Origin: Rhodospirillaceae bacterium
Lineage (GTDB): Bacteria; Pseudomonadota; Alphaproteobacteria; UBA6615
Direction: 5' to 3'
DNA length: 64,000 nucleotides
Assembly: GCA_038132575.1 (NCBI GenBank)
Contig: JAYPRP010000002.1
Location: 6,802-70,801, forward strand
Below the pieces are notes generated by a model. The model had not been told where the DNA came from. It did not search any database and worked only from the letters and a program-made list of their open reading frames with translations. A program made the translations under genes and the position numbers. Positions 19,321 to 40,585 of the stretch are shown in pieces. Each line of letters begins with the position of its first letter. Positions within the stretch are counted from its first letter, which is position 1.

Positions 19321-21227
19321 TCATCGCGACCGCGGGCCATATCGATCACGGCAAGACCCTGCTCGTGAAATCGCTGACGGGCGTCGACGCCGACCGCCTG
19401 CCGGAAGAGAAAAAGCGCGGCATGACGCTCGATCTCGGCTTTGCGTACACCGACCTCGAGAACGGCGCGCGGCTCGGCTTCATCGACGTGCCGGGCCATG
19501 AACGCCTGGTCCACAACATGCTGGCGGGCGTGACCGGCATCGACTGCGCGCTGCTCGTGGTCGCGGCGGACGACGGCCCCATGCCCCAGACGCTCGAACA
19601 CCTGGCGATCCTCGATATCCTGGGCGTCTCGCGCGGGATGGTCGCGCTCACGAAGATCGACCGGGTGGACGCATCCCGCGTGGCCGAGGTCCGGGACGAG
19701 ATCGAACTGCTGATCTGTGAAACTTCGCTGGCGGGCGCGACGGTGTTCCCGGTCTCGGCGGTCACCGGCGACGGGATCGAGGCGCTGCGGGAAGAAATCG
19801 CCGACATGGCCGCGGTCACCGAGGCGCGCTCCGGCGCAGGGCATTTCCGCCTCGCCGTCGACCGGGTGTTCACCGTCGCAGGCGCCGGCCTGGTGGCGAC
19901 CGGCACCGCCTTCGCCGGCACGGTCTCCCGCGAGGACCGGCTGTGGATCGCGGGGCACGACGTGCAGGCGCGCGTCCGCGGCATTCACGCCAACAACACG
20001 GACAGCGAGACAGGCCGGGCCGGAGACCGGCTGGCGCTCAACCTCGCCGGGCTCGACAAGGACGACATCGCGCGCGGCGACTGGTTGGTGGCCGATTCCG
20101 GGCTCGGGCTCTACCGCAAGCTGGATGTCCGGCTGAACGTGGTCGCCGATGCCAAGAGGCCGCTGCGGCACTGGACCCCCGTCCATGTGCATCTCGGCGC
20201 GCGGAACGTCACCGGCCGGGTGGCGATCCTCGGCGCCGACAGCGCCGCGCCGGGGAGCAACGTACCGGCGCAGCTCGTGCTGGACGCGCCCGTCGGCGCG
20301 TGCGTGCGCGACCGGTTCGTCATTCGCGACCAGTCGGCACAGGTCACGCTCGGCGGCGGGCACGTAGTGGATCTGCATCCGCCGCGCCGGGGGCGCGCCA
20401 GGCCGGAACGCCTCGAGCTGCTCGACGCCCTCGACACGCCCGACGCCGAGACGGCACTTGCCAGCGCACTGGCCCGGTCCCCGACCGGCCTGTCGATCGC
20501 CGACTTCGCGGCGGAGCGCAACCTGACCGAGGCCGAGATGTCCGCCGCTCTTTCGGCGACCGGCGCGGCGTCGGCGGGAACCGGCGCGGATGCGCTTGCG
20601 ATCGCGCAAGACGCCTGGGCCGCGCGGCGCGAGGAGTTGCTCGCCGCCCTCGACCAGTTCCACACGCGCTACCCCGACCGGCTGGGGCCCGCCGCGGCAC
20701 AGCTGCGCAAGAGCGTCGGCCGGTTCATCCCGGAGACCCTGTTCGACGCGGTCAGCGCGAAGCTGGTCGCCGACGGCACCATGTCGAGCGACGGGATGCT
20801 GCTGCACCGCCCGGATCACCGGCCGGGCCTGACGGGCGACGACGCGAAGCGCTGGGAAGCGCTGCAGCCCTATCTGAACGAGACGCCGGCAAGCCCGCCG
20901 GTGGTGCATGACCTGGCCCAGGCCGCCGGCCTCCCGGTCAACGGCGTCGGCAAGACGCTGCGCCAGGCGGTGCGCATGGGGCTCGCCGTGCAGATTGCCG
21001 AGAACCGGTTCTTCCTGCCCGCAGCGCTGCGCGCGCACGCACGGACCTTCGAAGCGATGATCGCCGCCGACGGCAGCGTCGGTGTGTCGCCATTCCGCAA
21101 GGAAGCGGGAATCGGACGGAATCTCGCCGTCGAGTTACTGGAGTATTTCGATCGGGTCGGCCTGTCACAGCGCGACGGGAATGTTCGTCACCAGCTCCGG
21201 CCGGTCGAAGAAGTGTTCGGCGCCTAA
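19317..21227 (+). CDS. selB: Selenocysteine-specific translation elongation factor, 636 aa.
   Basis: N-terminus [22 protein letters not shown] with G-domain motifs DVPGHE and TKID. A long C-terminal extension is consistent with SECIS-binding winged-helix domains. Confidence 0.9.
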
Positions 21228-23919: not shown

Positions 23920-23923
23920 ATAC

Positions 23924-25623: not shown

Positions 25624-25719
25624 GGAGGAGGACCGTTCCCCGGTGGGGCGCCCGGTCTTCAAAACCGGTGAGGGGCGTTAGACGTGCCTGGTGGGTTCGA
25701 CTCCCACCCTCTTCCGCCA
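25624..25719 (+). tRNA. selC: tRNA-Sec (anticodon UCA), 96 nt including encoded CCA.
   Basis: 8-bp acceptor stem GGAGGAGG/CCTCTTCC (one G-U pair). 6-bp D-stem. Anticodon stem CCGGT/ACCGG with loop CTTCAAA (anticodon TCA). Long variable arm. 5-bp T-stem GTGGG/CCCAC with TTCGACT loop. Discriminator G, then CCA. The 8/5 architecture is diagnostic of bacterial tRNA-Sec. Confidence 0.85.
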
Positions 25720-25812
25720 GTTTTCACGCACCCAAGCGCGATCCGGGAAAGACACCCGCCGCCCGGTGTTGATGTTCGCGCGGATGCGAAGCCCGGCAGT
25801 CCCTGAGAGCGC

Positions 25813-28035
25813 ATGACCCCGACCGTCCCGATCACACATGATATTGTCCTGATCGGCGGCGGCCATAGCCATGTGGCCGTCCTCAAGCGGTTCGGCATGA
25901 AGCCCGAGCCCGGGATCCGGCTGACTCTGATCACCCGGGACCTGCTGACACCCTATTCGGGCATGATCCCCGGCTACATCGCCAACCATTACAGCGCGGC
26001 CGAGGCGCATATTGACCTGCGCCCCCTCGCCGCCTTCGCCAACGCCCGGATCATCCACGCGGCGGCGACGGGGCTGGATCTGCAAAACAACTATGTCCAG
26101 GTCGCCGGCCGCCCGTCCGTGGCGTTCGATCTCGTCTCCGTCGACACCGGCTCGACCCCGTCAACGGCAGACATCGTCGGCGCCGGACACGGGTTGCCGG
26201 TGAAACCCATCGACCGCTTCCTTGAAACGTATCACCGCCTGACCGACGAGATCAGGAACCATCGTGGCCCGTTCCACATCACCATTGCGGGTGGCGGCGC
26301 GGGCGGGGTCGAGCTCGCGCTCGCGCTGCGCCACCGGCTGGGGCTGGCGGCACCGGGCCTCGGTAAGCGCCCCGGCGATCTCCGCTTCGCCATCGTCGAG
26401 GCCGCCGATACGCTCTTGCCCGGCTACAACAGGGCGGCCCGCCGCAAGCTCGCCCGCGCGCTCGCGGACCGCGGGATCGCCGTGCAAACCGGCGCGGGCG
26501 TGACACAGGTCGGGCCGGATACGGTGACCCTCGCCGACGGCGGCGTGCTTGACAGTGACAGAACGATCCTGGTGACCTCGGCCGGACCGCCCCACTGGCT
26601 CGCGGACAGCGATGTGGCGCGCGACGACCGCGGCTTCGTGCGGGTCGATGCGACGCTCCGCTCGCCGTCGCATCCGCAACTCTTCGCCACCGGCGACGCC
26701 GCCTCGATGGACGGGCACGCGCTGCCGAAGGCGGGGGTCTATGCCGTCCGCCAGGGGCCTTACCTGGCCGAGAACCTGGGCCGCGCGGCGCGGGGCCGGC
26801 CGCTGCGCAGCTACCGGCCGCAGGGCCAGACCCTGGCGCTCATCACCACGGGCGACAGGTTCGCCATCGCCGCACGCGGCTCGCTCTCCGTTCAGGGCGC
26901 CTGGGTGTGGCGCTGGAAGGACTGGATCGACCGACGCTGGATGCGCAAATACCAGGAGCTGCCGGACATGGATGCGGGCGACGGCGCGGACGGCGACGCA
27001 ACGCTCGAGGCCATGCGCTGTGGGGGCTGCGGCGCCAAGGTGCCGGCCCCGGTGCTCCGCCGCGCGCTCGACCGTTTGCCGCCGCAGGAAATCGAGGGCC
27101 TCGACCAGGGGCTGGATTCACCCGACGACGCAGCGGTCCTCACCCCGCCGCCGGGCAAGGCACTAATCCAGACCGTCGACCAGTTCCGCGCCTTCATCGA
27201 CGATCCCTATCTCTTCGGACGCATCGCGGCCAACCACTGCCTGGGCGATATCTTCGCAATGGGCGCCGAGGCCCATTCAGCACTGGCCGCGGTGATGCTG
27301 CCCCACGGCGAGGACGCGAAGACGTCCGACGATCTCTACCAGCTGCTCGCGGGTGCGACCGAGACCCTTGCAGAGGCCGGCGCGGTTCTCGCCGGCGGCC
27401 ACACCGGCGAGGGTGCGGAGATGGCCTTCGGCCTGACGGTCAACGGCTATGCCGATCCGGACACCATCCTGCGCAAGGGCGGGCTCGCGCCCGGCGACGC
27501 CCTAATCCTCACCAAGCCGCTCGGCACGGGCGTCCTGTTCGCCGCCGACATGCGTGCCAAGGCGGGCGGCGACCATGTGACGGCGGCGTTCGCCTCCATG
27601 CAGCGCTCGCTCGCGCTGGCGATCCCGGTGGTCCGGGACCATGGCGCGCACGCCGCCACCGATGTCACCGGCTTCGGGCTGGCGGGGCACCTGCTGGAGA
27701 TGCTCAACGCATCGGGCGTCGATGCCGAGCTCGAGCTCAACGCGCTGCCGGTCCTGCCGGGCATCGCCGCGCTGGTGGCCGCCGGCCATGAGAGCACGCT
27801 CCGGCCCGGCAACGAGGAGGCGGTCGGCAACGCCGCGCCCGTCTCAGCGCACCCGAACTTCCCGCTGCTGTTCGATCCGCAGACCGCGGGCGGGCTTCTC
27901 GTTGGCGTCCCGAGCGAACGGGCCGAGGCCTGCCTTGACGCGCTCCGCGCCGGCCCCGCGCCGGACGCGACGATTATCGGGCAAGTCACTGCAAGGATGG
28001 GCGACGTCTGCGTGCTGCGCTACGCCGAAACCTGA
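25813..28035 (+). CDS. selD: Bifunctional protein: N-terminal FAD-dependent pyridine-nucleotide-disulfide (NADH dehydrogenase-like) oxidoreductase domain fused to selenide, water dikinase, 740 aa. Cys-type active site.
   Basis: N-terminus DIVLIGGGHSHVAVLK (Rossmann FAD motif) and a second GGGAGGVELA nucleotide-binding motif. C-terminal half has SelD hallmarks: MRCGGCGAKV (catalytic Cys, not Sec) and an AIR-synthase-like fold. Confidence 0.85.
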   Translation: MTPTVPITHDIVLIGGGHSHVAVLKRFGMKPEPGIRLTLITRDLLTPYSGMIPGYIANHYSAAEAHIDLRPLAAFANARIIHAAATGLDLQNNYVQVAGRPSVAFDLVSVDTGSTPSTADIVGAGHGLPVKPIDRFLETYHRLTDEIRNHRGPFHITIAGGGAGGVELALALRHRLGLAAPGLGKRPGDLRFAIVEAADTLLPGYNRAARRKLARALADRGIAVQTGAGVTQVGPDTVTLADGGVLDSDRTILVTSAGPPHWLADSDVARDDRGFVRVDATLRSPSHPQLFATGDAASMDGHALPKAGVYAVRQGPYLAENLGRAARGRPLRSYRPQGQTLALITTGDRFAIAARGSLSVQGAWVWRWKDWIDRRWMRKYQELPDMDAGDGADGDATLEAMRCGGCGAKVPAPVLRRALDRLPPQEIEGLDQGLDSPDDAAVLTPPPGKALIQTVDQFRAFIDDPYLFGRIAANHCLGDIFAMGAEAHSALAAVMLPHGEDAKTSDDLYQLLAGATETLAEAGAVLAGGHTGEGAEMAFGLTVNGYADPDTILRKGGLAPGDALILTKPLGTGVLFAADMRAKAGGDHVTAAFASMQRSLALAIPVVRDHGAHAATDVTGFGLAGHLLEMLNASGVDAELELNALPVLPGIAALVAAGHESTLRPGNEEAVGNAAPVSAHPNFPLLFDPQTAGGLLVGVPSERAEACLDALRAGPAPDATIIGQVTARMGDVCVLRYAET

Positions 28036-28094: not shown

Positions 28095-29330
28095 TCAGCC
28101 GTGAATGGTGCGGTGGCGCTGATGGGTCGGAACCATGGCCGTCGGCGCGAGCGCCTTGAAGCCCGGATGCTCGCTCTCCATCGCCCAGTTGCGGATCTCC
28201 ACGAGCACCTTGCCCAGGGTCGTCTCACCCCACAGCCAATTCCCGATGTCCACGTCGGTGACCCGGCCGTCGGGCCGCGCGATCGCCGATTCCATGTAGT
28301 AGTAGCGCATGTCGTCGGCCATCTGCTTGAAGGCCAGATGGACCGGCTTTTCGTCGCCGAACGGTGACGGCGTGTCTTCCCGGTTCACCACGAGGCTGGC
28401 AAGGAACGCGGGAATCTCCTCGGGCGCCTTGCCCGAGATCCCGTAGTTCGTCCGTCCGCCGCGGCTCTGCTTCGATTCCTCGTACCACGGTTTCAGGAGC
28501 GCGATCTCCTGCAACAGCGTCTGCTCGAGCAGTTCCTGATCGCTGACGTCCTCCACCAGTGCCGCGAAGTTGACCGGGCAGGCCCAGCCTTCCTGCTCGA
28601 CGTCCGCGCCCGGCGGGTCGTCGGGGAAGTCTTCCAGGACGGGTCCGGATTCACGCTCCAGCAGGTCCAGGCAATCGCGCAGGACCCGGCGCTGAAACTC
28701 CGGCTCGTTCGGCGCGCCCAGGGGACGGCCGAGCTCGAATGGCACCGCGAGCGCGCGCGGAGGCTTGATTTCCTCGGCATGCTTGCGGATCAGCGCGATC
28801 TGCGTCGTCGGAATGCCTTCGTCTTCGAGATAGTGTGCAAGCCCGCCCACGGCGCGCGTGCATTGGGGTCAGACGGGGACGAGCGCAACCGCGTCGACAT
28901 TGTCCGCCTTGAGGACGCCGGCGAGGTCACGCGCGATGGGTTCCATCACGGTCGGCGGGGTTGCCCCCATGAAGGAGAAGTGCCGGCTCGCGACCGAGCC
29001 GATGACACCCTCTTCGGCCAGTTCGCGCAGGCGGTCGATCGGGAAGGATGTGTTCACGTCCTGATAGAAGCCGCTGCGGTCGAAGTTGGTCGACAGGTGG
29101 CTCATCACCAGGTCGCCCATGTCGTAATCGTCCGGGATGATCCGGTAGTCGCCGGCGCCCGGCGTGAACGGATCGTCCTCGCGCCGGTGCAGACCGGCGG
29201 TCGAGATAAGCGCGACACGGCATTCGTCGAGCGGCTTGGGCGTGACCCATGGCGTGTCGCCGTACTCGGGCAGTTCCTGATTGATCAGCGCCTCGCGCAG
29301 ATGATCAGGCATTTCTCGCAGGTGAACCAT
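28095..29330 (-). CDS. Candidate selenoprotein of the glycine/sarcosine/betaine/D-proline reductase selenoprotein B (GrdB/PrdB) family. UxxC motif with TGA at 28869..28871. About 411 aa read-through.
   Basis: Track ORFs 28869..29597 and 28095..28850 are in the same frame (29597-28850 = 747). Start chosen at MVHLREMPDHL (29330, GGGGAG RBS). Junction ...VDAVALVPV-TGA-PQCTRAVGGLAHYLEDEGIPTTQIALIRKH... gives U-P-Q-C. My by-eye base reading around 28800-28860 differed by one base from the track translation, so the junction follows the track frames. Confidence 0.5.
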
Positions 29331-29443: not shown

Positions 29444-30136
29444 TCAGGCCGCGCGCATGTCCTCGGCGGTGGTGCCGGTCGAGGTGTTCTCGGCGTATTT
29501 GCGCCAGTTCTCGATCAGCACCTCGAGCGACGCAGAGCCCTCCGTCACCGACGGGCGCTGGCCCATGAGCTGCAGCCAACCCTTGAGGAGCACGCATTCG
29601 TCGGGGATCTGGAAGTCGCGGTAGTGGGTGAGCACCGCGACCCGCTGCATGTGCGGCAGGAAGGTCAGGTCGACCAGACTGATGTCGTCGCCGAGCCAGT
29701 AGGAGCCGTCGCCCAGCTTGCCGAGCCCTTCATGCTCCATCATCAGCATCGCCTTCGTCAGCCGCTCAACCTGGAAGGCCTGGGCCTCGGCGTCCTGGGC
29801 CATCATCAGCTTGTAGACATGGGGCGTGAAGCGGACATTCGCGAAATCGATCCAGATGCGCGCCTGGGCCCGGCGGACCGGATCGCGCGGCAGCAACGGA
29901 CGCTCCGGGAACACCTCCTCGAGATACTCGTTGATGACGGCGGATTCGAAGATCACCGCACCGTTGTGACGCAGCACGGGCACCTTGCCGTAGGGCGAGA
30001 TCGCGAGGAACCAATCGGGCTTGTCGTTCAGGTCGATCGCGGTGAGCGTGTGCTCGATCCCCTTCTCGATCAGCGCCATCCGGGTGCGCTGGGCGAACGG
30101 ACAGGTGGACGAACTGATGATCTCGACGTCGCTCAT
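29444..30136 (-). CDS. Glutathione S-transferase (Cys-type, CPFA active site), 230 aa.
   Basis: N-terminus MSDVEIISSSTCPFAQRTRMALIEKGIEH (thioredoxin-like GST N-domain) and a C-terminal helical domain. Confidence 0.75.
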   Translation of the reverse strand: MSDVEIISSSTCPFAQRTRMALIEKGIEHTLTAIDLNDKPDWFLAISPYGKVPVLRHNGAVIFESAVINEYLEEVFPERPLLPRDPVRRAQARIWIDFANVRFTPHVYKLMMAQDAEAQAFQVERLTKAMLMMEHEGLGKLGDGSYWLGDDISLVDLTFLPHMQRVAVLTHYRDFQIPDECVLLKGWLQLMGQRPSVTEGSASLEVLIENWRKYAENTSTGTTAEDMRAA

Positions 30137-30153: not shown

Positions 30154-32550
30154 CTAGTACTTGCCGAGCGCCTTGAGCACCCGCTCGGGCGTGATCGGCT
30201 GGGCGAAGACCGTCGCCCCCAGGGGACTGAGCGCGTCGTTGACGGCGTTCAGGATCGCGCCGGGCGCACCCGCGGTGCCGGCCTCGCCCGCACCCTTAGC
30301 GCCGAGCTCGGATTCCTTCGTCAGCGTCTCCACATGCCCGATCTCGATATCCGGCATCTCGCCCGCCATGGGCACCAGATAGTCGGCCATGTTCGCGTTC
30401 AGGAAGTTGCCGTCCAGGTCATAGCGGCACTCCTCGTAGAGCACGCCGCCGATGCCCTGGACAATCGAGCCGCGCACCTGTTCGTCCACCAGGAGCGGGT
30501 TGATGACCTTGCCGCAATCCTCAACGCAGTAGAACTTGAGCAGCTCGACCGTGCCGAGCTCGGGATCGACCTCGCAGGTCACGGCCTGGAAACTGTTGGT
30601 CATCGCCACGGGATACTTCTTCGGGATGTAGTGGCGCGTCGCCATCATCTCGGACTGGAAATCCTGGGGCAGCGTGTCGGGCCGGAAGTAGGCCACGCGC
30701 GCCACCTCCTCGAGCGGCATGCGCTCCTCGCCGGTCGCCCGGTCAACCACGACGCCGTGGCGGATGTCCAGCGACGCGGCCTCGGACTGGAGCAGGATCG
30801 CGGCCACGTCGAGGACGTTGTGACGCAGCGCCTTGGCCGCCTGGAGCGCTGCCTCGCCGGCAATGCCCGCACCGCCGGAACCGCCCGCGCCCCAGCCGAC
30901 CGGGACGTTGTCCGTGTCGCCCGAGATCACCTTTACCTTGTCCGGCGTGGTGCCGAAGGCGCTGGCCGTCACCTGCTGGATCACGGCCTCCGAGCCCTGG
31001 CCCTGCTCGGTGATCGACGTCTGGACGATCACGGCCCCCGACGCGTCCATCCGCGCTGCCGCGCCGTCCTGGGACGATATGCGCGCCCCGCCCAGCCCGT
31101 AGGTGTGCGGGCCCGGGTTCGTCATCTCGACAAGGGTCGCAAAACCGACGCCGCGGTAGATGCCCTGTTCGCGCAACCGGGCCTGCTCCGCGCGGAAACC
31201 CTGGTAGTCGAACATGGCAAGAAGCTTGTCGAGCGAGGCCTCGTGGGAGAGGGCCTCCATCTTCAGGCCGGTGATGAAATCGCGCGGATAGCTGTCGTCC
31301 GCCATGAGGTTGCGCCGGCGCACATCGACCGGATCGAGCCCGAGCTTGCGCGCACCCTCTTCCATGAGCGTTTCGGTGATCGCGACGGCGACGGGATGGC
31401 CAACCGCGCGATACTGGCTCATCGGCGTCTTGTTCTGGAACACGACGCGCGAGCGCGCCTTGTAGTTCGCGTGGTTGTAGGGCGCGCCGACATAGTTGAT
31501 GACCTGCAGCGCCTCGAGCGCGGAGGTGCGGGGATACATCGAGTAGGGACCGACGCCCGTGAGGTCGTCCATCTCGATGGCGAGCAGTTCGCCATCCTCG
31601 GCAAACGCCGCGCGCACGTGAGCGCGGTGGTCGCGCGCGTGCAGGTCCGTCAGGAAGGATTCAATCCGGTCGGCGATGAACTTCACCGGCCGTTTCATGA
31701 TCTTGGAGATCGCGGCCGTCGCCATCTCGTCGGGATAGGTGTGTCCCTTGACGCCATACGCACCGCCGACGTCGCCGCACACGATCCGGACATTCTGGTT
31801 CGGGATGTCGAGATGCCGGGCGAACAGGTCCTGCATCATGTGCGGGGCCTGGTGCGAATGGTACGAGGTCAGGCGGTTCTCGGAGCTGTGATAGTCGGCG
31901 ATGATCGCGCGCGATTCCGGGCACACGCCGGTGTGACGGCCGAAATGCATGGTGTGCCCGACCACCGCCGCCGCCTCGGCAAACGCCTTTTCGGTGTCGC
32001 CGATATCGTGATTCATCTCGAACAGCAGGTTGTCGCCAAGATCGGCATGCATCACGAGCGTGTCGTCGTCGAGCGCGACCTCGGGATCGGCGAGCACCGG
32101 CAGTTCCTCGAACTCGACCTCCAGCAGTTCGAGCGCGTCCTCGGCTTCCGCCCGGCTGTGGGCGACGATCGCGGCCACCGGCTCGCCCTGCCAGCAGGCC
32201 CGGTCCACTGCCATCGCGTACTGGGGCGCCGACTTCATGCCCTTGAAGTGGGCAAGCGTTCCGACCCAGGGGGTACAGACCTCGGCGATCTCCTTGCCCG
32301 TGAACACCCGGATCACGCCGGGGCTCGCCAGCGCGGCCGCGTCGTCGATCGAGACGATCTTCGCGTGCGCATAGGGCGAACGGAAATAGGCCACATGGAC
32401 CATGCGCGGCAGCGACAGGTCATCGACATACCTGCCCTGGCCGGCCACCAGGCGCGCGGCGTTGGCGCGCGGCACGGTCTTGCCGATGAAGGTTTCCTCG
32501 CGGTCGAGGACGCTTTCCTCGCCCGAATGGTCCGCCACGCTCATGAGCAC
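30154..32550 (-). CDS. Xanthine dehydrogenase/CoxL-family molybdopterin-binding subunit, 798 aa.
   Basis: ELGAKGAGEAGTAGAPGAILNAVNDAL C-terminal active-site Glu region and a QYRAVGHP loop. Paralog of 32735..35125 and 9160..11499. Confidence 0.8.
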   Translation of the reverse strand: MLMSVADHSGEESVLDREETFIGKTVPRANAARLVAGQGRYVDDLSLPRMVHVAYFRSPYAHAKIVSIDDAAALASPGVIRVFTGKEIAEVCTPWVGTLAHFKGMKSAPQYAMAVDRACWQGEPVAAIVAHSRAEAEDALELLEVEFEELPVLADPEVALDDDTLVMHADLGDNLLFEMNHDIGDTEKAFAEAAAVVGHTMHFGRHTGVCPESRAIIADYHSSENRLTSYHSHQAPHMMQDLFARHLDIPNQNVRIVCGDVGGAYGVKGHTYPDEMATAAISKIMKRPVKFIADRIESFLTDLHARDHRAHVRAAFAEDGELLAIEMDDLTGVGPYSMYPRTSALEALQVINYVGAPYNHANYKARSRVVFQNKTPMSQYRAVGHPVAVAITETLMEEGARKLGLDPVDVRRRNLMADDSYPRDFITGLKMEALSHEASLDKLLAMFDYQGFRAEQARLREQGIYRGVGFATLVEMTNPGPHTYGLGGARISSQDGAAARMDASGAVIVQTSITEQGQGSEAVIQQVTASAFGTTPDKVKVISGDTDNVPVGWGAGGSGGAGIAGEAALQAAKALRHNVLDVAAILLQSEAASLDIRHGVVVDRATGEERMPLEEVARVAYFRPDTLPQDFQSEMMATRHYIPKKYPVAMTNSFQAVTCEVDPELGTVELLKFYCVEDCGKVINPLLVDEQVRGSIVQGIGGVLYEECRYDLDGNFLNANMADYLVPMAGEMPDIEIGHVETLTKESELGAKGAGEAGTAGAPGAILNAVNDALSPLGATVFAQPITPERVLKALGKY

Positions 32551-32654
32551 CGTTCCCCTGTGACCTGTTATCGGGGGAACGGTACAGGCCCGGGACCTCT
32601 ACGGCCAGCCCGGCGGGCGTTCACGATCGGGACAGCGGGCGCGACAACAGGCAC

Positions 32655-32719
32655 GCCCTCATCCTGAGCTTGTCGAAGGAGAGGGCGGCCCCTCATGCTT
32701 CGACAAGCTCAGCATGAGG
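32655..32719. repeat. Second copy of the twin-hairpin element. It contains TGAGCTTGTCGAAG (32665..32678) and the inverted exact 29-mer CCTCATGCTTCGACAAGCTCAGCATGAGG (32691..32719).
   Basis: The reverse complement of this 29-mer equals the 29-mer at 7793..7821. It lies between the tandem XDH-family paralogs. Confidence 0.7.
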
Positions 32720-32734
32720 TTCGTGATTCCCCGC

Positions 32735-35125
32735 CTAGAACTTGCCGAGCGCCTTCAGGATTCGTTCCGGCGTGATCGGCTGGTGCGACACGCGGACGTC
32801 GAAGGGCGAGAGCGCATCGTTGATGGCGTTCATGACCACCCCCGGCGCGCCGGCCGTGCCGGCCTCGCCCGCACCCTTGGCGCCGAGTTCCGAATCCGCC
32901 GTCGGCGTCTCCACATGGCCGACATGGATGTCCGGCATCTCGCCGGCCATGGGCACCAGGTAGTCGGCCATATTGGCGTTCACGAGATTGCCCGTATCGT
33001 CGTAGCGGCATTCCTCGAGCAGCGCGCCGCCGAGCCCCTGGATCACGCCGCCGCGCACCTGCTCGTCCACCAGCTGCGGGTTCAGCACCGTGCCGCAATC
33101 CTCGACGACCCAGTAGTCCAGGAACCGCAGGAAACCGGTCTCCGGATCGACCTCGACGTAGCAGGCCTGGATGCCGTTCGTGAACGCGATGTTGTACTCG
33201 CGCGGCACGAAATGGCGGGTCGCCATCAGCTCGGGCTGGAAGCCCTTGGGGATCAGGTCCGAGCGGAAGTAGGAGATCCGCGCCAGCTCGTCGAGCCCCA
33301 TCCGCTCGTTGCCCGTGTCGTCATCGACCACCACGCCCTCGCGGATGTCGAGGGTCTTCGGGTCGGCCTGGAGGAGCTGGCCGGCGATGTCCTTGATGTT
33401 GTAACGCAGCGCCTTGGCCGCCCGGAGCACGGCCTCTCCGCCGATGCCCGCGCCGCGCGAGCCCCAGGTGCCGCCGCCGGTGGGCACGTTGTCCGTGTCG
33501 CCGGTGATGACCTTGACCCGGTCCGGGCTGGTGCCGAACGCGGTGGCCGCGATCTGGCCCATGATCGCGTCGGTGCCCTGTCCCTGCTCGGTCACCGACG
33601 TGTGGACGACGATCGAGCCGCTCGAATCGAGCCGCACCTGCGCGCCGTCCTGGGACGAAATCCGCGCGCCGCCGATGCCGTACATGGCCGCGCCCGGGTT
33701 GGTGAGCTCGATCATCGCCGCGAAGCCGATGCCGCGATAGACGCCCTCGCCGCGCAGCCTGTCGCGCTCGGCCTTCATGCCCTCGTAGTCCATCGCGCCG
33801 AGCAGCTTGTCGAGTGACGCGTGGTGGGAAAGGCCCTCGAAGACGATGCCGCTCGCGCCCTTGGTCGGGTAGGCGTCGTCCGTGATGAGGTTGCGCCGGC
33901 GGATATCGACCGGGTCGATCCCGAGCGCCTGCGCACCCTTGTCCACCATGGCCTCGGTCACGGCGAAGGCGACCGGGTGGCCGACGGCGCGGTACTGGCA
34001 CATGACGTTCTTGTTCTGGAACACGACCTGCGCCTTGGCGCGATAGTGCTCGTGCTTGTAGGGGCCGCCGGTGAAGTTCAGGACCTGGTTCGCCTCCATC
34101 GCGCTCGTGCGCGGGTACATGGAGTAGGGCCCGACGCCGGTCAGGTCGTCGATCTCGATCGCGGTGATGTCACCGTCCCTGGTGAAGCCCATCTTGGCGT
34201 GCACCCGGTGCGCGCGGGCATGGATGTCGGTGAGGAAGGACTCGATCCGGTCGGCGGCGAACTTGACCGGCCGGCCAAGCATCTTCGACAGGGCCACCGT
34301 GGCCATCTCGTCGGCATAGACATGGACCTTGATGCCGAACGACCCGCCGACGTCGCGGCAGACCACGCGAACCTGGCCCTCGGGCACGCCGACATGCTTG
34401 GCGAAGATGTGCTGCATCATGTGCGGCGCCTGGTTCGACATGTGCACGGTCAGCTTGTCGTCGGCCTCGTCATAGTCCGCGACGAGGACGCGCGGCTCCA
34501 GCGTGACGCCGGTGTGGCGGTCGAAGTGGTAGGTCTCCTCGACCACGACGTCCGCGGCGGCAAAGGCCGCGTCCACGTCCCCGGCCTCGACCCCGTTCTC
34601 GAAGGCGATGTTGTCGCCGAGATCGGGATGGATGACCGGCGTTCCGGGGTCGCCCGCCGTCTCGGGATCGGTGACCGCCGGCAGCTCCTCATACTCGACC
34701 GTGATCGCGGCCGCGGCATCCTCGGCCTCGGCCCGGCTGTTCGCGACCACGGCGGCAACCGCCTCGCCCTGCCAGCAGACATGATCGACGGCGATCGCGT
34801 GCTGCGGGGCCGACTTGAGGCCCTTGAAGTGGGTGAGCACGCCGACCCAGGGCTCGCAATACTCCGCCAGTTCGGCGCCGGTGACGACGCGAACGACACC
34901 GGGCATCCCGGCGGCCGCGCTCGTGTCGATCGAGATGATTCTCGCATGGGCGTGGGGCGAGCGGAGATAGACCGCGTGCACCATGCGGGGCAGCTTCAGG
35001 TCATCGACGAACTGGCCCTTGCCGCGCACGAGCTTGCGCACGTTCGGCCGCGGCACCACCTTGCCGATGTAGCTGTTGGGGCGTCCCAGGACGCTCGAAT
35101 CCGGACTCAGGGCTTCGTCGGTCAT
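32735..35125 (-). CDS. Xanthine dehydrogenase/CoxL-family molybdopterin-binding subunit, 796 aa.
   Basis: ELGAKGAGEAGTAGAPGVVMNAINDAL and QYRAVGHPVAFAV. Tandem paralog of the downstream gene. Confidence 0.8.
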   Translation of the reverse strand: MTDEALSPDSSVLGRPNSYIGKVVPRPNVRKLVRGKGQFVDDLKLPRMVHAVYLRSPHAHARIISIDTSAAAGMPGVVRVVTGAELAEYCEPWVGVLTHFKGLKSAPQHAIAVDHVCWQGEAVAAVVANSRAEAEDAAAAITVEYEELPAVTDPETAGDPGTPVIHPDLGDNIAFENGVEAGDVDAAFAAADVVVEETYHFDRHTGVTLEPRVLVADYDEADDKLTVHMSNQAPHMMQHIFAKHVGVPEGQVRVVCRDVGGSFGIKVHVYADEMATVALSKMLGRPVKFAADRIESFLTDIHARAHRVHAKMGFTRDGDITAIEIDDLTGVGPYSMYPRTSAMEANQVLNFTGGPYKHEHYRAKAQVVFQNKNVMCQYRAVGHPVAFAVTEAMVDKGAQALGIDPVDIRRRNLITDDAYPTKGASGIVFEGLSHHASLDKLLGAMDYEGMKAERDRLRGEGVYRGIGFAAMIELTNPGAAMYGIGGARISSQDGAQVRLDSSGSIVVHTSVTEQGQGTDAIMGQIAATAFGTSPDRVKVITGDTDNVPTGGGTWGSRGAGIGGEAVLRAAKALRYNIKDIAGQLLQADPKTLDIREGVVVDDDTGNERMGLDELARISYFRSDLIPKGFQPELMATRHFVPREYNIAFTNGIQACYVEVDPETGFLRFLDYWVVEDCGTVLNPQLVDEQVRGGVIQGLGGALLEECRYDDTGNLVNANMADYLVPMAGEMPDIHVGHVETPTADSELGAKGAGEAGTAGAPGVVMNAINDALSPFDVRVSHQPITPERILKALGKF

Positions 35126-35182: not shown

Positions 35183-36385
35183 TTATTCCACACCCGCGCC
35201 GCGAAGGCGATTGCGGACCGGGTGCCGGTCGGCGTCCTTTATCCCCAGCGCGTCCTCGCCGATCAGGATGCGCTGGACGTTGGCCGTCCCCTCGCCCACA
35301 GCGAGCATGTTCACATAGGCGGTGAATTTCTTGATCGGATATTCGTCGGCAAGCGCGTAGCCGGCAAAGATCTCCGCCGCCCCTGCCGCCGCCTCTTTCG
35401 CCGCCTCGACCGCGAAATACTTCGCCCGGGACGCCGCCCCGGTTGCCGGCCGCCCCTCGTCCATCAGCCAGGCCATGCGCTGCACCATCAGGCGCGCGGC
35501 GTCGGTGTGCGTGGCCATGTCGGCGATCAGGTGCTGCACCATCTGGTATTCCGCGATGGGACGGTCGCGGATGACCCGCGCATTGGCATAAGCGATCGCC
35601 TCGTCAAGGCAGGCCTGGGCCAGCCCCACCGCCCGGGCGGACACGGTGAGCCGCCCGAACTCGAGCGCGTTCATCGCGATCCTGAACCCCTCGCCCTCTT
35701 CGCCGAGACGGTTCTCGACCGGCACGACGAAATCGTCGAGGAAGACGGCGTTCGACGCGAGGCAATTCGACAGGCCGGTCATCGGGATCGGATCGGCCGC
35801 GAAACCCTCGTGGGACTTCGGTTCGACGATAAACGCGGTGATCCCCCGGTGGCCCGCGGACGGATCGGTCTTGGCAAACAGTATCCCCGCGTCGGCGGCG
35901 TTGGCGAAGGTGATCCACTGCTTCGAGCCGTTGAGCCGATAGACATCGCCGTCGCGCGTGGCGGTCGTTTTCATGGACCCGGCCGCATCCGAGCCGCCGC
36001 CGGGCTCGGTCAGGGCGAACATGCCGATCCGCCGCCCGGCGATCAGGTCCGGGACGAAGCGGTCGATCTGGTCGTCGGTGCCCCAGTTGAAGATCGTGAA
36101 CGGGCAGGTCATGGCCTGCATGTTCATGCAGTAGCCGAACTCCGGCGCGATGCGCGAGATCGTCTCGGAGATCGCGGCCACGGCAAGGAACCCGGCGTCC
36201 GTGCCGCCGAGCGCCTCGGGAAAGGCCGCGCCGAAGAAGCCCGCATCGCCCATCTTCGCGACGATCTCGCGCGGGAATTCGCCGGACGCCTCGTAGGTGC
36301 CGATCTCCGGCAGAATCTCTGTTTCCGCGAACCGTGCGACCGCATCCGCGACGGCACCGATTTCCTCGGGCAGGCTGAAGTCCAT
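35183..36385 (-). CDS. Acyl-CoA dehydrogenase, 400 aa.
   Basis: Typical ACAD segments: MTCPFTIFNWGTDDQ, LTEPGGGSDAAG, the FAD/substrate region GEGTANVQRILIG, and a catalytic-base region near the C-terminus. Confidence 0.85.
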   Translation of the reverse strand: MDFSLPEEIGAVADAVARFAETEILPEIGTYEASGEFPREIVAKMGDAGFFGAAFPEALGGTDAGFLAVAAISETISRIAPEFGYCMNMQAMTCPFTIFNWGTDDQIDRFVPDLIAGRRIGMFALTEPGGGSDAAGSMKTTATRDGDVYRLNGSKQWITFANAADAGILFAKTDPSAGHRGITAFIVEPKSHEGFAADPIPMTGLSNCLASNAVFLDDFVVPVENRLGEEGEGFRIAMNALEFGRLTVSARAVGLAQACLDEAIAYANARVIRDRPIAEYQMVQHLIADMATHTDAARLMVQRMAWLMDEGRPATGAASRAKYFAVEAAKEAAAGAAEIFAGYALADEYPIKKFTAYVNMLAVGEGTANVQRILIGEDALGIKDADRHPVRNRLRGAGVE

Positions 36386-36436: not shown

Positions 36437-37285
36437 ATGGAAAGAAAGGTCGAACCGCGCGTGAGCGAGCTTTTCACATCCGTCGAGGACCTGGCCGCCC
36501 GCATTCCCGACGGCGCAAAGGTGGCGCTGGCGCCCGACTATTCGGGCTGCTCGATGGCAACCGTACGCGCGCTGATCGCCCGTGGGGCGAAGGACCTGCA
36601 CCTGGTCGGTGTCCCGTCGGTGGGGTTCCAGGGCGACATGCTGATCGGCGCGGGCTGCGTCGCGACGCTGGAGACAGCGGCGGTGACCCTCGACGAGTAC
36701 GGCCCCGCCCCGCGGTTCATGGCGGCCGTGAAGGCCGGCTCGATCAAGGTGATCGACGGCACCTGCCCTGCGATTCACGCCGGCCTGCAGGCGGCGGAAA
36801 AGGGCATACCCTACATGCCCGTGCGCGGCATCGTCGGCTCCGATCTGCTCGCCCATCGTGACGACTGGACCACGGGCACCGACCCCTTCGGCGAACAGGA
36901 GGGACCGCTCGTGCTGGTAAAGGCGATCCGGCCCGACATAACGCTCATTCACGCGCCGCTTGCCGACCGTAACGGCAATGTCTGGATCGGCGTGCGCCGG
37001 GAGATGATGGTGATGGCCCACGCCGCGCGCCAGACCTTCGTCACCGCGGAGGAAATCTACGACGGCGACCTTCTTGCCGATGCCGTGCGCGCGCCGGGCA
37101 CCATCCCGGGGCTCTACATCTCGGCGCTGGCCGAAGCCGAGAACGGCGCCTGGCCCGTCGGCCTGTTCGGCGCGTACGGACCCGACGACGCGCACCTGCG
37201 CGACTATCTCGAACGCGCGCGCACCGACGAGGGCTTCGCGGGCTATCTCGAGGAATTCGTGTACGCACCCAAGGCCGCCGAATGA
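36437..37285 (+). CDS. CoA-transferase subunit A (glutaconate/3-oxoacid CoA-transferase family I, alpha), about 282 aa.
   Basis: C-terminal part of the artefactual 1154-aa track ORF 33821..37285. SELFTSVEDLAARIPDGAKVAL... is a typical subunit-A N-terminus. Start is uncertain (ATG 36437 or GTG 36461). Confidence 0.7.
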   Translation: MERKVEPRVSELFTSVEDLAARIPDGAKVALAPDYSGCSMATVRALIARGAKDLHLVGVPSVGFQGDMLIGAGCVATLETAAVTLDEYGPAPRFMAAVKAGSIKVIDGTCPAIHAGLQAAEKGIPYMPVRGIVGSDLLAHRDDWTTGTDPFGEQEGPLVLVKAIRPDITLIHAPLADRNGNVWIGVRREMMVMAHAARQTFVTAEEIYDGDLLADAVRAPGTIPGLYISALAEAENGAWPVGLFGAYGPDDAHLRDYLERARTDEGFAGYLEEFVYAPKAAE

Positions 37286-37295
37286 GCGCCCCAAG

Positions 37296-38039
37296 ATGAG
37301 CGCAACGATCGCGCCCGAAGAACTGCTGATCGCGACCGTCGCGGACATGCTCGCCGGGCTCGGCCATGTGGCCGTGGGCGCCCAGTCACCCATCCCGGGT
37401 TCCGCCGCCCTGCTCGCCCGCGCGCGGTCCGGGGGCTCGCTCCGGGTCTCGATGCTCGGCAGCGAGGCCCACAGCCCGTTCACCGACGGCGGGCGCGAGC
37501 TCTTCGACTGTGCCGCCCAGGGCCGGATCGACGCCTTCTTCCTCGGCGGCGGCCAGATCGACGGCCAGGCGAACATCAACCTGGTGGGCATCGGCGACTA
37601 TCCGGACACGAAGGTCCGGTTTCCCGGCTCCTTCGGCTCGGCCTATCTCTACTTCCTCGTGCCCCGGGTGATCCTGTTCCGCGAGGAACACACCGCGCGG
37701 GTGCTGGTGCCCAAGGTCGATTTCGTCAGCGCGCCGGGCGTGAGCGAGGACGATGTCGCACGGACCGGTGGTCCCCACGCGCTGGTCACCGGCCGCTGCG
37801 TCTTCGACTTCGACCGGGACCGCCGCCGCTTCCGGCTCGCCTCGGTGCATCCCGGCCATGATGCCGACGAGGTTCGCGAACATACCGGGTTCGACTACGA
37901 CGCCCCCAACACGGTGCCCAAGACGGCATTGCCGGACGCGGCAACGCTGGAGTTGCTGCGCGGCCGGATCGCCACCGAGGTCGCCGAGACCTATCCGGCC
38001 TTCGCCGCGCGCGTGTTCGGGGCCGCCGACGCCGCCTAA
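37296..38039 (+). CDS. CoA-transferase subunit B (family I, beta), 247 aa.
   Basis: Internal start MSATIAPEELL of track ORF 37074..38039, 10 nt after the subunit-A stop. It contains an ESG-type segment (MLGSEAHS), though I could not place the catalytic Glu with certainty. Confidence 0.7.
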   Translation: MSATIAPEELLIATVADMLAGLGHVAVGAQSPIPGSAALLARARSGGSLRVSMLGSEAHSPFTDGGRELFDCAAQGRIDAFFLGGGQIDGQANINLVGIGDYPDTKVRFPGSFGSAYLYFLVPRVILFREEHTARVLVPKVDFVSAPGVSEDDVARTGGPHALVTGRCVFDFDRDRRRFRLASVHPGHDADEVREHTGFDYDAPNTVPKTALPDAATLELLRGRIATEVAETYPAFAARVFGAADAA

Positions 38040-39370: not shown

Positions 39371-40585
39371 ATGTCCCCCAACACCTCTCGCTTCGGCGCA
39401 CTCAACGGCCTCAAGGTCGTCGATCTGGCCCGCGTTCTCGGCGGCCCCTACTGCACGCAGATCCTCGCGGATCACGGCGCAAACGTAATCAAGGTGGAGC
39501 CACCCCAGGGCGACGAGGTGCGCGACTGGGGGCCGCCGTTCCACGACGGCGACGCGTCCTATTTCACGGGGCTCAACCGCAACAAGCGCTCCATCGGCCT
39601 CGACCTGACCAAGCCCGAGGGGCGGGAAATCCTGTTCCGCCTGCTGGAGGATGCGGACGTGCTGATCGAGAATTACAAGACCGGCACCATGGAGAAGTGG
39701 GGGCTCGGCTACGACGAGATGCTGTCGGAGAAGTATCCGCGCCTGATCCACTGCCGGATCTCCGGATATGGCGCCGACGGCCCGCTGGGCGGCTTTCCCG
39801 GCTACGACGCAATCGTCCAGGCAATGGCCGGCTGGTTCTCGATCAACGGCGGCGAAGACAAGGTGCCGACCCGCGTCGGCATCGCCGCCGTGGACATGGG
39901 CACGGGCCTCTATTCCTGCGTCGGCATCCTGATGGCGCTGTTCGAGCGCCAGGCGTCGGGCCGCGGCCAGTATATCGACATGACGCTCTACGACTGCGCG
40001 GTCTCGCTGATGCACCCACACATTCCCAACTACTACCTGTCGGGCGGCAAGGTCCCCGGGATCACGGGCAACCAACACTCCAACATCGCGCCCTACGACA
40101 AGTTCCCCACGAAGACAGTCGATGTCTTCATCGGCGCAGGTAACAACCGGGCGTTCCAGCGCCTGTGCGATACGCTCGGCCGGCCCAAACTGACCGAGGA
40201 CCCGCGCTTCGTCACCAACTCCGACCGGATTCAGCATCGCGACGAGCTGCGCGAAGAACTGCTCGACGCCTTCGCCGCCGTGGACGGCGAGGAGGTCTCG
40301 ATGAAGCTGCTGGCGGCCGGCGTGCCCTGCGGGCCGGTGCTCGATACCGCCCAGGTGATGGACGCGCCCCACACGAAGCATCGCAACATGGCCGCCAAGC
40401 TCGATTGGTACGAGGGCGCGGGCATTCCCATCAAGTTCGGGCGCACGCCGGGCGAGATCCGCTCGACCCCGCCCGCCTTCGGCGCCCAGGCCGAGGAGAT
40501 TCTTCGCGAGCACGGGTTCGACGACGACGCGGTCGCGGCGCTCGCCGAATCGGGCGGTCTCGTCACCGAACGCCGCAAGCTCTAG
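39371..40585 (+). CDS. CaiB/BaiF family III CoA-transferase, 404 aa.
   Basis: Internal start MSPNTSRFGALNGLKVVDLARVLGGPYCTQILADHGANVIKVEPP of track ORF 39008..40585. Classic family-III N-terminus. A conserved Asp is expected but I did not pinpoint it. Confidence 0.8.
   Translation: MSPNTSRFGALNGLKVVDLARVLGGPYCTQILADHGANVIKVEPPQGDEVRDWGPPFHDGDASYFTGLNRNKRSIGLDLTKPEGREILFRLLEDADVLIENYKTGTMEKWGLGYDEMLSEKYPRLIHCRISGYGADGPLGGFPGYDAIVQAMAGWFSINGGEDKVPTRVGIAAVDMGTGLYSCVGILMALFERQASGRGQYIDMTLYDCAVSLMHPHIPNYYLSGGKVPGITGNQHSNIAPYDKFPTKTVDVFIGAGNNRAFQRLCDTLGRPKLTEDPRFVTNSDRIQHRDELREELLDAFAAVDGEEVSMKLLAAGVPCGPVLDTAQVMDAPHTKHRNMAAKLDWYEGAGIPIKFGRTPGEIRSTPPAFGAQAEEILREHGFDDDAVAALAESGGLVTERRKL

What the first reader, a model, noticed from the sequence alone, without database searches (positions are those of the whole stretch)
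30154..35125. Three CoxL/XDH-family molybdopterin large-subunit genes (two in tandem) with no FAD (CoxM) or [2Fe-2S] (CoxS) subunit genes anywhere in 64 kb
The genes 9160..11499, 30154..32550 and 32735..35125 each encode only the roughly 790-aa Mo-binding subunit. This family normally functions as L-M-S heterotrimers encoded in one operon. The 9160 gene has the form-II AYRGAGR loop; the tandem pair has an AYRAVGHP-type loop. Either the partner subunits are shared from a distant locus, or these are large-subunit-only enzymes with different electron partners. Candidates for partners are the nearby cytochrome c, the DM13 protein or the GST.
Basis: partly seen in the sequence, partly recalled or inferred. 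Interest (0 to 1): 0.5.

Follow-up and report, generated by a model that had tools for sequence, protein, structure and literature searches.

The report
Molybdenum hydroxylase genes lacking partner subunits
Two adjacent genes, plus a third 20 kb away, encode intact molybdenum-binding subunits of the xanthine/CO-dehydrogenase family with no iron-sulfur or flavin subunit genes nearby, an arrangement conserved across marine Alphaproteobacteria and lying next to a selenocysteine gene island, so how these enzymes pass on electrons is unresolved.

Summary
Genes 32735-35125 (La), 30154-32550 (Lb) and 9160-11499 (L3) are full-length XDH/CoxL-family Mo subunits. tblastn and profile HMMs find no CoxS or CoxM gene in the 64 kb.

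It is not a local accident. All 22 orthologous loci (75-93% identity, marine alphaproteobacterial MAGs) carry acyl-CoA dehydrogenase, La, optionally Lb, then a Cys-type (CPFAQR) GST, divergent from CoA-transferases, with no S/M within 10 kb. The nearest outgroup (64-68% identity) nearly always has S, and usually M, just upstream of L.

La and Lb keep all catalytic and cofactor motifs. La shows no rate acceleration and no excess loss of residues shared by S/M-linked clades.

My best reading (about 0.45) is conventional hydroxylases that use FeS/FAD subunits encoded elsewhere. The main rival (about 0.25) is an enzyme that needs no S/M. Cytochrome c and DM13 are not conserved neighbours.

The question is undecided without whole-genome data.

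The parts
32735..35125 (-). La: XDH/CoxL-family Mo-cofactor-binding large subunit, 796 aa
   Evidence: Pfam Ald_Xan_dh_C, MoCoBD_1 and MoCoBD_2 at full length. Best PDB sequence match is quinoline 2-oxidoreductase QorL 1t3q_B, 459 bits. Motifs SNQAPHMM, DVGGSFGIK, QYRAVGHP and GAKGAGEAGT are present.
30154..32550 (-). Lb: paralogous large subunit, 798 aa, 62% identical to La
   Evidence: Same three Pfam domains. Catalytic and cofactor motifs are kept, with R557G in the GSR segment. It forms its own clade with a long stem and shares 8 derived states with La.
9160..11499 (+). L3: third large subunit, 779 aa, with a PYRGAGRP loop (form-II-like)
   Evidence: It belongs to a broad radiation of relatives with no S/M in their flanks, separate from the single S-L-M clade.
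35183..36385 (-). Acyl-CoA dehydrogenase, 57 nt upstream of La
   Evidence: Pfam Acyl-CoA_dh N, M and C domains. Nearest NCBIfam model is non-decarboxylating glutaryl-CoA dehydrogenase, 323 bits, below cut-off. tblastn finds it in 20 of the 22 orthologous loci; it is missing from L018 and from the truncated L023.
29444..30136 (-). Cys-type (Omega/Lambda-like) glutathione transferase, 17 nt downstream of Lb
   Evidence: GST_N_2 and GST_N_3 domains. N-terminal SSSTCPFAQR. CPFAQR is invariant in 20 loci.
28095..29330 (-). PrdB/GrdB-like selenoprotein, 411 aa, with Sec at residue 154 in a U-P-Q-C motif
   Evidence: In-frame TGA with ORFs continuous on both sides. Full-length homologues carry Cys at that position, PVCPxCTR. 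Best NCBIfam match is PrdB TIGR04483, 122.9 bits, below the 300 cut-off. The TGA is conserved in all 23 copies examined.
28836..28862 (-). SECIS-like hairpin, 9 nt after the UGA at 28869-28871
   Evidence: ViennaRNA fold gives a stem with a GUG apical loop, recurring in the orthologous copies. It overlaps conserved codons, so its conservation is not independent evidence.
36437..38039 (+). Two-subunit family-I CoA-transferase (A 36437-37285, B 37296-38039), divergent from the ACAD-L operon
   Evidence: Pfam CoA_trans. Both subunits are found in 20 of 22 loci.
39371..40585 (+). Family-III CoA-transferase
   Evidence: CoA_transf_3, E 3e-123. Nearest NCBIfam model is succinate-glutarate CoA-transferase, below cut-off. 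Found in 21 of the 22 orthologous loci; the truncated L013 and L023 lack the upstream flank, though L013 still shows ACAD.
25813..28035 (+). Pyridine-nucleotide-disulfide oxidoreductase fused to SelD (selenophosphate synthetase), convergent with the PrdB-like gene
   Evidence: Pfam Pyr_redox_2, AIRS and AIRS_C. TIGR03169 and selD TIGR00476 both above cut-off.
25624..25719 (+). tRNA-Sec
   Evidence: ARAGORN, anticodon TCA. Rfam RF01852, 71.2 bits.
17914..21227 (+). SelA (17914-19320) and SelB (19317-21227)
   Evidence: Pfam SelA, E 1e-162; SelB domains.
32551..32734 (.). La-Lb spacer holding a palindromic repeat element
   Evidence: The 22-nt arm occurs as an inverted pair here and once more at 7794-7815, against 0 expected by chance. 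A similar element is in the L005 spacer.

Best explanation
La and Lb are functional catalytic (Mo-cofactor) subunits of a molybdenum hydroxylase from the QorL/CoxL-like 'QYRAVGHP' subgroup.

They sit in a catabolic module conserved in marine Alphaproteobacteria. On one strand: acyl-CoA dehydrogenase, La, optionally Lb, then a Cys-type GST. Divergent from it: a two-subunit and a family-III CoA-transferase. The likely substrate is a CoA-activated or N-heterocyclic/aromatic carboxylic acid.

The lineage descends from an ordinary M-S-L operon and has lost the linked FeS (S) and FAD (M) genes. The most likely mechanism remains the family's usual one. The substrate is hydroxylated at Mo. Electrons leave through two [2Fe-2S] clusters to FAD, on S and M subunits encoded elsewhere in the genome and possibly shared among the several orphan L paralogues. 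La and Lb probably form the L-L' dimer core.

Shown: intact genes and motifs, conserved synteny, absence of S/M nearby, descent from M-S-L relatives. Inferred: trans-encoded S/M, the heterodimer, the substrate class.

The adjacent PrdB-like selenoprotein belongs to the neighbouring selenocysteine island and is probably a separate GSH- or thiol-dependent reductase, not the missing partner.
For: 1. The active-site and cofactor motifs (QAPHMM, DVGGSFGIK, QYRAVGHP, GAKGAGEAGT) are near-identical in La, Lb and 60 relatives, nearly all S/M-linked. There are no extra domains and no length change.

2. La is not accelerated. Its mean distance to the outgroup is 1.415, against 1.422 for the S/M-linked sister clade.

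3. A paired contrast is symmetric. Of 156 residues shared by two independent S/M-linked clades, La keeps 145. Of 155 shared by the two orphan groups, the canonical clade keeps 145. The convergent changes (351, 478, 549, 639) include the 471-487 loop. By my own alignment to bovine XDH F1009-L1014, that loop lines the substrate pocket rather than a subunit interface.

4. Apart from the ACAD, no FeS or flavin protein is conserved in the module.

5. The PrdB-like gene travels with SelD, SelB and SelA even where L and GST are absent (L171), and it can be separated from the GST by a TRAP transporter (L172, L008, L011, L013). Its Cys homologues are not next to L genes.

6. From my own knowledge, every characterised member of the family uses two [2Fe-2S] centres.

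7. CoxL-like genes are highly multi-copy in marine MAGs: 119,560 in 26,690 genomes (PMC13203968). In sponge symbionts they average up to 29 per genome (PMC8941161).
Against: No S/M lies within 10 kb in any of the 22 orthologous loci, whose contigs reach 4.3 Mb, whereas S lies upstream of L, usually with M, in nearly all of the 60 outgroup loci.

Three orphan L genes lie in one 64-kb stretch.

In the L3 group the orphan state is phylogenetically coherent and old. Apart from L114 (S/M about 3 kb away on the opposite strand), all S-L-M loci form one tight clade, and every other lineage lacks S/M. That is unusual for subunits of an obligate complex.

La has lost more canonical-invariant positions (16%) than an equally diverged S/M-linked relative, L024 (9%).

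No trans-encoded S/M gene has actually been found, because whole genomes could not be searched.
Confidence: 0.45

Rival explanations
1. La/Lb form an S/M-independent molybdenum enzyme. Electrons would leave or enter the Mo centre in one of two ways. Either a second substrate reacts at the same site (ping-pong oxo-transfer), or a thiol/selenol route runs through the co-conserved Cys-GST with glutathione and possibly the neighbouring UxxC selenoprotein. No iron-sulfur or flavin subunit would be involved.
For: S/M linkage was lost in 22 of 22 loci while a Cys-GST is gained immediately downstream of L in every locus with enough flank. CPFAQR is invariant, and that motif marks reductase/thiol-transferase GSTs by my own knowledge. 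The PrdB-like UxxC selenoprotein is next to it in most loci. La carries about 26 more substitutions at canonical-invariant sites than expected from its divergence. Orphan L lineages are widespread and old.
Against: No characterised XDH-family enzyme lacks the FeS centres (own knowledge). There is no excess loss of residues shared by S/M-linked clades and no rate acceleration in La. The PrdB-like gene is linked to the Sec machinery rather than to L, and its Cys homologues occur without L. No fusion protein links PrdB-like to anything else among the 150 best of 3495 representative clusters. L3-type orphans have no recurrent neighbour at all.
Confidence: 0.25
2. The BenC-like reductase at 42429-43472 carries a plant-type [2Fe-2S] domain, an FAD domain and an NAD domain on one polypeptide. 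It would substitute for both S and M.
For: It holds the same cofactor types as S plus M. It is the only FeS hit in the window. It recurs about 1-2 kb beyond the family-III CoA-transferase in L004, L021 and L022.
Against: It lies next to a PaaA-like di-iron oxygenase subunit and an SDR, which is the usual client of such reductases. It lacks the Fer2_2 domain that contacts the Mo cofactor (own knowledge). It is absent from the fetched flank of L006. In L003, L005 and L007 its expected position would fall beyond the fetched flank, so those loci say nothing either way.
Confidence: 0.06
3. The orphan L proteins are selenium-dependent molybdenum hydroxylases. That would explain why La/Lb on one side and L3 on the other flank the SelD/SelA/SelB island.
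For: L genes lie on both sides of the Sec island here and in related loci: L019, L021, L091 and L093.
Against: SelD is already explained by the complete Sec pathway (SelA, SelB, tRNA-Sec) and two UGA-encoded selenoproteins. No XdhC/YqeB-like accessory gene was found among the window proteins scanned. This reading also does not explain the missing S/M, since known selenium-dependent enzymes have FeS/FAD subunits (own knowledge).
Confidence: 0.05
4. One or both tandem genes are decaying or non-catalytic remnants.
For: Lb has a long stem branch and R557G in a family-wide conserved GSR segment. The L021 orthologue has an in-frame stop.
Against: Both have full-length ORFs. Both are conserved at 85-93% identity across 13 loci. 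The catalytic Glu, Gln, Arg and the GGxFG motifs are intact.
Confidence: 0.03

Closest known systems
Quinoline 2-oxidoreductase large subunit QorL (PDB 1t3q_B), with aerobic CO dehydrogenase CoxL as the next closest
   Same: Same three-domain Mo-binding subunit, aligned end to end: 459 bits to QorL and 442 bits to mycobacterial CoxL 8uem. The catalytic Glu, the Gln and the YR-loop Arg are conserved.
   Different: The known enzymes are L-M-S heterotrimers whose genes are adjacent. Here no M or S gene lies within 10 kb in 22 loci. The loop is QYRAVGHP, which is neither form I AYxCSFR nor form II AYRGAGR.
The unnamed sister clade, 64-68% identical, from Hyphomicrobiales, Oceanibaculum and Alsobacter (annotated 'xanthine dehydrogenase family protein molybdopterin-binding subunit')
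   Same: Near-identical active-site motifs and the same length.
   Different: In the sister clade S lies upstream of L, usually preceded by M and often overlapping the L start. The window's clade has ACAD upstream and a Cys-GST downstream instead.
CoA-ester-acting members of the family (4-hydroxybenzoyl-CoA reductase HcrA, 2-furoyl-CoA dehydrogenase HmfA)
   Same: An XDH-family L subunit embedded among CoA-ester enzymes. HcrA 1rm6_A matches at 273 bits; TIGR03194 matches at 383-414 bits, below cut-off.
   Different: Both known enzymes have co-encoded FeS and FAD subunits (own knowledge). The sequence is closer to QorL and CoxL than to HcrA.
Form II CoxSLM (for the third gene, L3)
   Same: YRGAGRP loop, and 42-46% identity to L genes that lie in S-L-M operons.
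   Different: L3 falls outside the S-L-M clade, in a radiation of lineages without adjacent S/M. The first residue of its motif is P, not A.
Marine 'proline reductase PrdB' selenoprotein family (UxxC) and the Ndh-SelD fusion, both described from Sargasso Sea and GOS metagenomes
   Same: PF07355 match, a UxxC motif with Sec, high abundance in marine data, and SelD fused to an Ndh-like domain (PMC1088965, PMC2398784).
   Different: It is not an orthologue of clostridial PrdB: 122.9 bits against a cut-off of 300, no PrdA gene, and an extra helical C-terminal domain of about 185 aa. Its linkage to orphan XDH-family L genes was not mentioned in the passages I read.

Membership tests
XDH/CoxL-family molybdenum hydroxylase, large subunit | Ald_Xan_dh_C, MoCoBD_1 and MoCoBD_2 domains at full length | tested here: met
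   all three genes.
XDH/CoxL-family molybdenum hydroxylase, large subunit | Catalytic Glu (GxGE), active-site Gln, YR-loop Arg, GGxFG(x)K cofactor motif | tested here: met
   These are conserved in La, Lb and L3. Lb has Tyr for Phe in the GGxFG motif.
XDH/CoxL-family molybdenum hydroxylase, holoenzyme | Co-encoded [2Fe-2S] (Fer2 + Fer2_2) and FAD (FAD_binding_5 + CO_deh_flav_C) subunits or domains | tested here: not met
   None in the 64-kb window. None within 10 kb in 22 orthologous loci. The rest of the genome was not searchable.
Form I aerobic CO dehydrogenase | AYxCSFR active-site loop and coxMSL order | tested here: not met
   The loops are QYRAVGHP and PYRGAGRP. TIGR02416 scores 416-512 against a cut-off of 991.
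Form II CoxSLM | AYRGAGR loop and coxS-coxL-coxM order | tested here: not met
   L3 has PYRGAGR, no S/M, and lies outside the S-L-M clade.
Selenium-dependent molybdenum hydroxylase trait | SelD together with YqeB/YqeC-type accessory genes next to the hydroxylase genes | tested here: inconclusive
   SelD is adjacent. No XdhC/YqeB-like hit was found among the window proteins scanned with Pfam. I ran no dedicated YqeC model and could not search the rest of the genome.
Bacterial selenoprotein (for the PrdB-like gene) | In-frame UGA, Cys in homologues at that position, downstream hairpin, and Sec machinery in the genome | tested here: met
D-proline reductase PrdB (TIGR04483 equivalog) | Score above the curated cut-off, and a PrdA pyruvoyl partner gene | tested here: not met
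   122.9 bits against a cut-off of 300. No PrdA-like gene is annotated in the locus tables.
Omega/Lambda-class (Cys) glutathione transferase | GST N- and C-terminal domains with a catalytic Cys in a CPF/CPY motif | tested here: met
   Assigning the class from the motif rests on my own knowledge.

The most novel reading that the evidence does not exclude
Orphan XDH/CoxL-family large subunits, meaning the La/Lb clade here and the much wider L3-like radiation, are a distinct class of molybdenum enzymes that work without the family's [2Fe-2S] and FAD subunits. In the La/Lb case they would exchange redox equivalents through glutathione and a Cys-GST, and perhaps the neighbouring UxxC selenoprotein, or through a second substrate at the Mo site.
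Probability: 0.2. Interest if true: 0.85.

Novelty: new variant of a known kind. Interest (0 to 1): 0.5.

Why it matters
CoxL-like genes are among the most multiplied oxidoreductase genes in marine and soil genomes, and the substrates of most are unknown (PMC13203968, PMC8941161).

These results show that lack of linked FeS/FAD genes is a clade-level, conserved property, both here and in a broad radiation around the third gene. If such proteins share S/M modules in trans, metabolic reconstructions that require a coxMSL operon undercount active enzymes. If they truly work without S/M, that would be a new electron-transfer design for a textbook enzyme family.

The conserved ACAD, L, optional L', Cys-GST and CoA-transferase module also defines an uncharacterised catabolic pathway in abundant uncultured marine Alphaproteobacteria. 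It gives the abundant marine 'PrdB' selenoprotein a genomic setting.

Tried and rejected
1. Exact look-up of La in the assembly index found nothing. The left end gene was also not on record, so only the right end could be extended.

2. The first CoxS HMM was contaminated by S ORFs that run in frame into L, giving false hits to La, Lb and L3. I rebuilt it from ORFs of at most 260 aa.

3. The structure of the PrdB-like protein, modelled from the Cys homologue P0229, reached only pLDDT 65.7. It had no significant PDB fold match (best E 0.024), and the sequence search of the PDB found nothing. The C-terminal domain remains unassigned.

4. A Rosetta-stone search for PrdB-like fusions found none. 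The longest of the 150 best representatives is 419 aa.

5. Clustering the neighbours of 54 L3-like orphan loci gave no recurrent partner family.

6. Rfam found no Moco riboswitch or annotated SECIS, only tRNA-Sec. The promoter/terminator scan of the operon was uninformative.

7. Literature searches for orphan coxL or for L-only enzymes found no description of this arrangement.

8. I rejected cytochrome c and DM13 as partners because they are not conserved. BhcC (38066-39229) is not part of the module, being present in only 3 loci.

9. I ran no further search on CoxS. The top-120 limit made it unlikely to recover S genes from the same genomes.
Full report
**Observation**

The window is high-GC (about 66%). 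I picked coding frames by GC3 and GC1 against GC2. Three genes encode complete XDH/CoxL-family large subunits:

- La, 32735-35125 (-)
- Lb, 30154-32550 (-)
- L3, 9160-11499 (+)

Each has Ald_Xan_dh_C, MoCoBD_1 and MoCoBD_2 at full length. None reaches the cut-off of any named NCBIfam equivalog.

No CoxS or CoxM gene exists in the 64 kb:

- tblastn with a CoxM/CoxS pair from a related locus gave a best E of 0.079.
- HMMs built from 65 CoxS and 67 CoxM sequences, searched without filters against all six-frame ORFs of at least 40 aa, gave a best E of 0.11.
- Both best hits fall on the plant-type Fer2 domain of a BenC-like reductase at 42429-43472.
- A contig that encodes an identical copy of the window's right-end gene extends 5.3 kb further and shows only purine-catabolism genes.

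**Surroundings**

On the minus strand the order is as follows, with RBS-like sequences before each start:

| Gene | Coordinates | Gap to next |
|---|---|---|
| Acyl-CoA dehydrogenase | 35183-36385 | 57 nt |
| La | 32735-35125 | 184 nt |
| Lb | 30154-32550 | 17 nt |
| GST | 29444-30136 | 113 nt |
| PF07355 (GRDB) protein | 28095-29330 | — |

Divergent on the plus strand lie a two-subunit family-I CoA-transferase (36437-38039) and a family-III CoA-transferase (39371-40585). A 3[17 protein letters not shown] aldolase BhcC gene is inserted between them (above cut-off).

The GRDB-like ORF stops at a TGA (28869-28871), which is followed in frame by a 256-codon ORF. Read through, the sequence is VPV-U-PQC-TR. 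Several lines support a selenoprotein:

- Full-length homologues have PVCPxCTR at this site and align on both sides of it.
- The TGA is present in all 23 copies in related loci.
- A hairpin with a GUG loop starts 9 nt downstream.
- tRNA-Sec lies at 25624-25719.
- SelA and SelB are at 17914-21227, and an oxidoreductase-SelD fusion at 25813-28035.
- A second UGA gene, a Prx-like protein with W-U-PYC, lies at 24456-24929.

These selenium features match families described from Sargasso Sea and GOS metagenomes: 'PrdB' UxxC, 'Prx-like 1' UxxC and the Ndh-SelD fusion (PMC1088965, PMC2398784).

**Comparative evidence for La/Lb**

A scan of one genome per species returned 80 loci, and I mapped their genes by tblastn. 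With one metagenomic locus, 22 loci hold orthologues at 75-93% identity. All are from uncultured marine Alphaproteobacteria or Rhodospirillaceae MAGs.

- Every one has the same module where its flanks reach far enough: CoA-transferases, then divergently ACAD, La, optionally Lb, and the GST. A PrdB-like gene split at the TGA and the SelD fusion follow.
- None has S or M within 10 kb.
- Seven loci have a single L (L016, L018-L023).
- L001 has an independent second copy.
- The 60 loci at 64-68% identity (Hyphomicrobiales, Oceanibaculum, Alsobacter) nearly all have S, and usually M as well, just upstream of L.

All groups share essentially the same QAPHMM, DVGGSFGIK, QYRAVGHP and GAKGAGEAGT motifs. 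In an NJ tree the La clade, the Lb clade and the canonical clade radiate from nearly one node, and Lb has a long stem. La and Lb share eight derived states at canonical-invariant sites, which argues for a common orphan ancestor.

**Is the large subunit still built for S/M?**

- La is not accelerated. Its distance to the outgroup is 1.415, against 1.422 for the canonical clade; Lb is at 1.496.
- Lb changes 7 of 114 family-wide conserved columns. Only R557G is non-conservative.
- La keeps 84% of the positions that are invariant in the canonical core. An equally diverged S/M-linked relative, L024, keeps 91%. This points to a moderate functional shift.
- A phylogenetically paired contrast shows no asymmetry. 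It compared La with its S/M-linked sister clade, and the L3 subclade with the S-L-M clade. 145 of 156 against 145 of 155 shared residues are kept, with five convergent changes in each direction.
- The convergent sites include the 471-487 loop. By my own alignment this corresponds to the bovine XDH F1009-L1014 substrate-pocket segment, so it suggests altered substrate specificity rather than a lost interface.

I could not map residues onto a heterotrimer structure with the tools available.

**The third gene and orphan L genes in general**

Of 80 metagenomic relatives of L3, 54 loci have no S/M in their flanks. In a tree, apart from L114 (S/M about 3 kb away on the opposite strand), all S-L-M loci form a single tight clade. 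Every other lineage, L3 included, is an orphan, and many have 7-8 kb of sequence on each side. These orphans share no recurrent neighbour. So the orphan state is widespread, old and clade-coherent.

**Candidate partners**

- **Cytochrome c and DM13.** Neither is found in any of the 22 loci, and each has an obvious local client: a Cu-ATPase with CueR, and a PQQ dehydrogenase.
- **GST.** It is always present, with an invariant CPFAQR motif. By my own knowledge that is the hallmark of Cys-type (Omega/Lambda/DHAR-like) GSTs, which act as GSH-dependent reductases.
- **PrdB-like selenoprotein.** It is linked primarily to the Sec machinery. At 55% identity it sits with the SelD fusion, SelB and SelA but without L or GST (L171). 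In several loci a TRAP transporter separates it from the GST. Its Cys homologues occur in unrelated contexts. The family is large, with 3495 representative clusters, most truncated at the Sec codon and none fused to anything else in the top 150. Its model is of medium quality and has no PDB fold match.

**Conclusion**

The sequence evidence includes intact motifs, an unchanged rate and symmetric retention of shared residues. No replacement redox protein is conserved, and all known family members depend on FeS centres. On this basis I favour ordinary hydroxylases that use S/M subunits encoded elsewhere (0.45).

An S/M-independent mechanism remains a serious rival (0.25). It is supported by the strict loss of linkage, the gain of the Cys-GST, and the breadth and age of orphan lineages.

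The whole genomes that would settle the question exist (for example OZ253937.1) but could not be scanned here.

Noticed in passing
window 28095-29330 (-), TGA at 28869-28871: A UGA-encoded PrdB/GrdB-like selenoprotein (411 aa, U-P-Q-C motif) that gene callers split into 153-aa and about 250-aa pieces. Cys homologues span the site. The TGA is conserved in 23 of 23 copies and is followed by a hairpin.
   Followed up: yes
window 24456-24929 (+), TGA at 24588-24590: A second candidate selenoprotein: a Prx-like (AhpC-TSA) protein reading GHW-U-PYC. The Pfam match starts only after the stop codon. A split orthologue (44 + 107 aa) is seen in L172.
   Followed up: partly
window 17914-28035: A complete selenocysteine island: SelA, SelB, tRNA-Sec and an oxidoreductase-SelD fusion. 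XDH-family L genes flank it on both sides (L3 upstream, Lb/La downstream). Similar L-to-Sec-island proximity is seen in L019, L021, L091 and L093.
   Followed up: partly
window 38066-39229 (-): 3[17 protein letters not shown] aldolase BhcC (NCBIfam 709.8 bits, above the 690 cut-off) inserted between the CoA-transferase genes. It is present at this position in only 3 related loci (L008, L010, L011).
   Followed up: partly
window 32658-32718 and 7794-7815; L005:12389-13022: A 22-nt palindromic repeat arm (CTCATGCTGAGCTTGTCGAAGC) forms an inverted pair in the La-Lb spacer and recurs once between two amidohydrolase genes. In several related loci the longer La-Lb spacer instead holds an opposite-strand ORF with two CxxC motifs followed by a hydrophobic stretch.
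   Followed up: partly
L021:10001-12391: The La orthologue of this MAG has one in-frame stop (NFTG*TYKH where the others read NFTGGPYKH). It could be a pseudogene or an assembly error.
   Followed up: no
window 42429-48226 (+): A run of genes: BenC-like Fer2-FAD-NAD reductase, SDR, PaaA/PaaC-like di-iron protein, bicupin, an unknown, and an ADP-forming acyl-CoA synthetase, preceded by a MarR gene and a GH3_C fragment. It is probably an aryl-CoA oxygenase pathway. The reductase and PaaA-like genes recur in L004, L021 and L022, and the PaaA-like gene also in L018.
   Followed up: partly
window 61858-64000 and L168: A membrane urate oxidase (Urate_ox_N) and a LysR gene begin a purine-catabolism cluster that continues beyond the window: HIU hydrolase, OHCU decarboxylase/PuuE, allantoicase, ureidoglycolate lyase and a xanthine permease. 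No xanthine dehydrogenase genes are adjacent.
   Followed up: partly
L013:10542-13028, L015:16620-19000, L172:6279-8759: The PrdB-like selenoprotein gene is duplicated in tandem in some loci. Both copies keep the TGA.
   Followed up: no
L088-L167: Among relatives of L3, apart from L114, the loci with coxS-L-coxM order form one tight clade, while 52 sequences from many deep lineages have no S/M in their flanks. The orphan state looks like a clade property across a large part of the family.
   Followed up: partly
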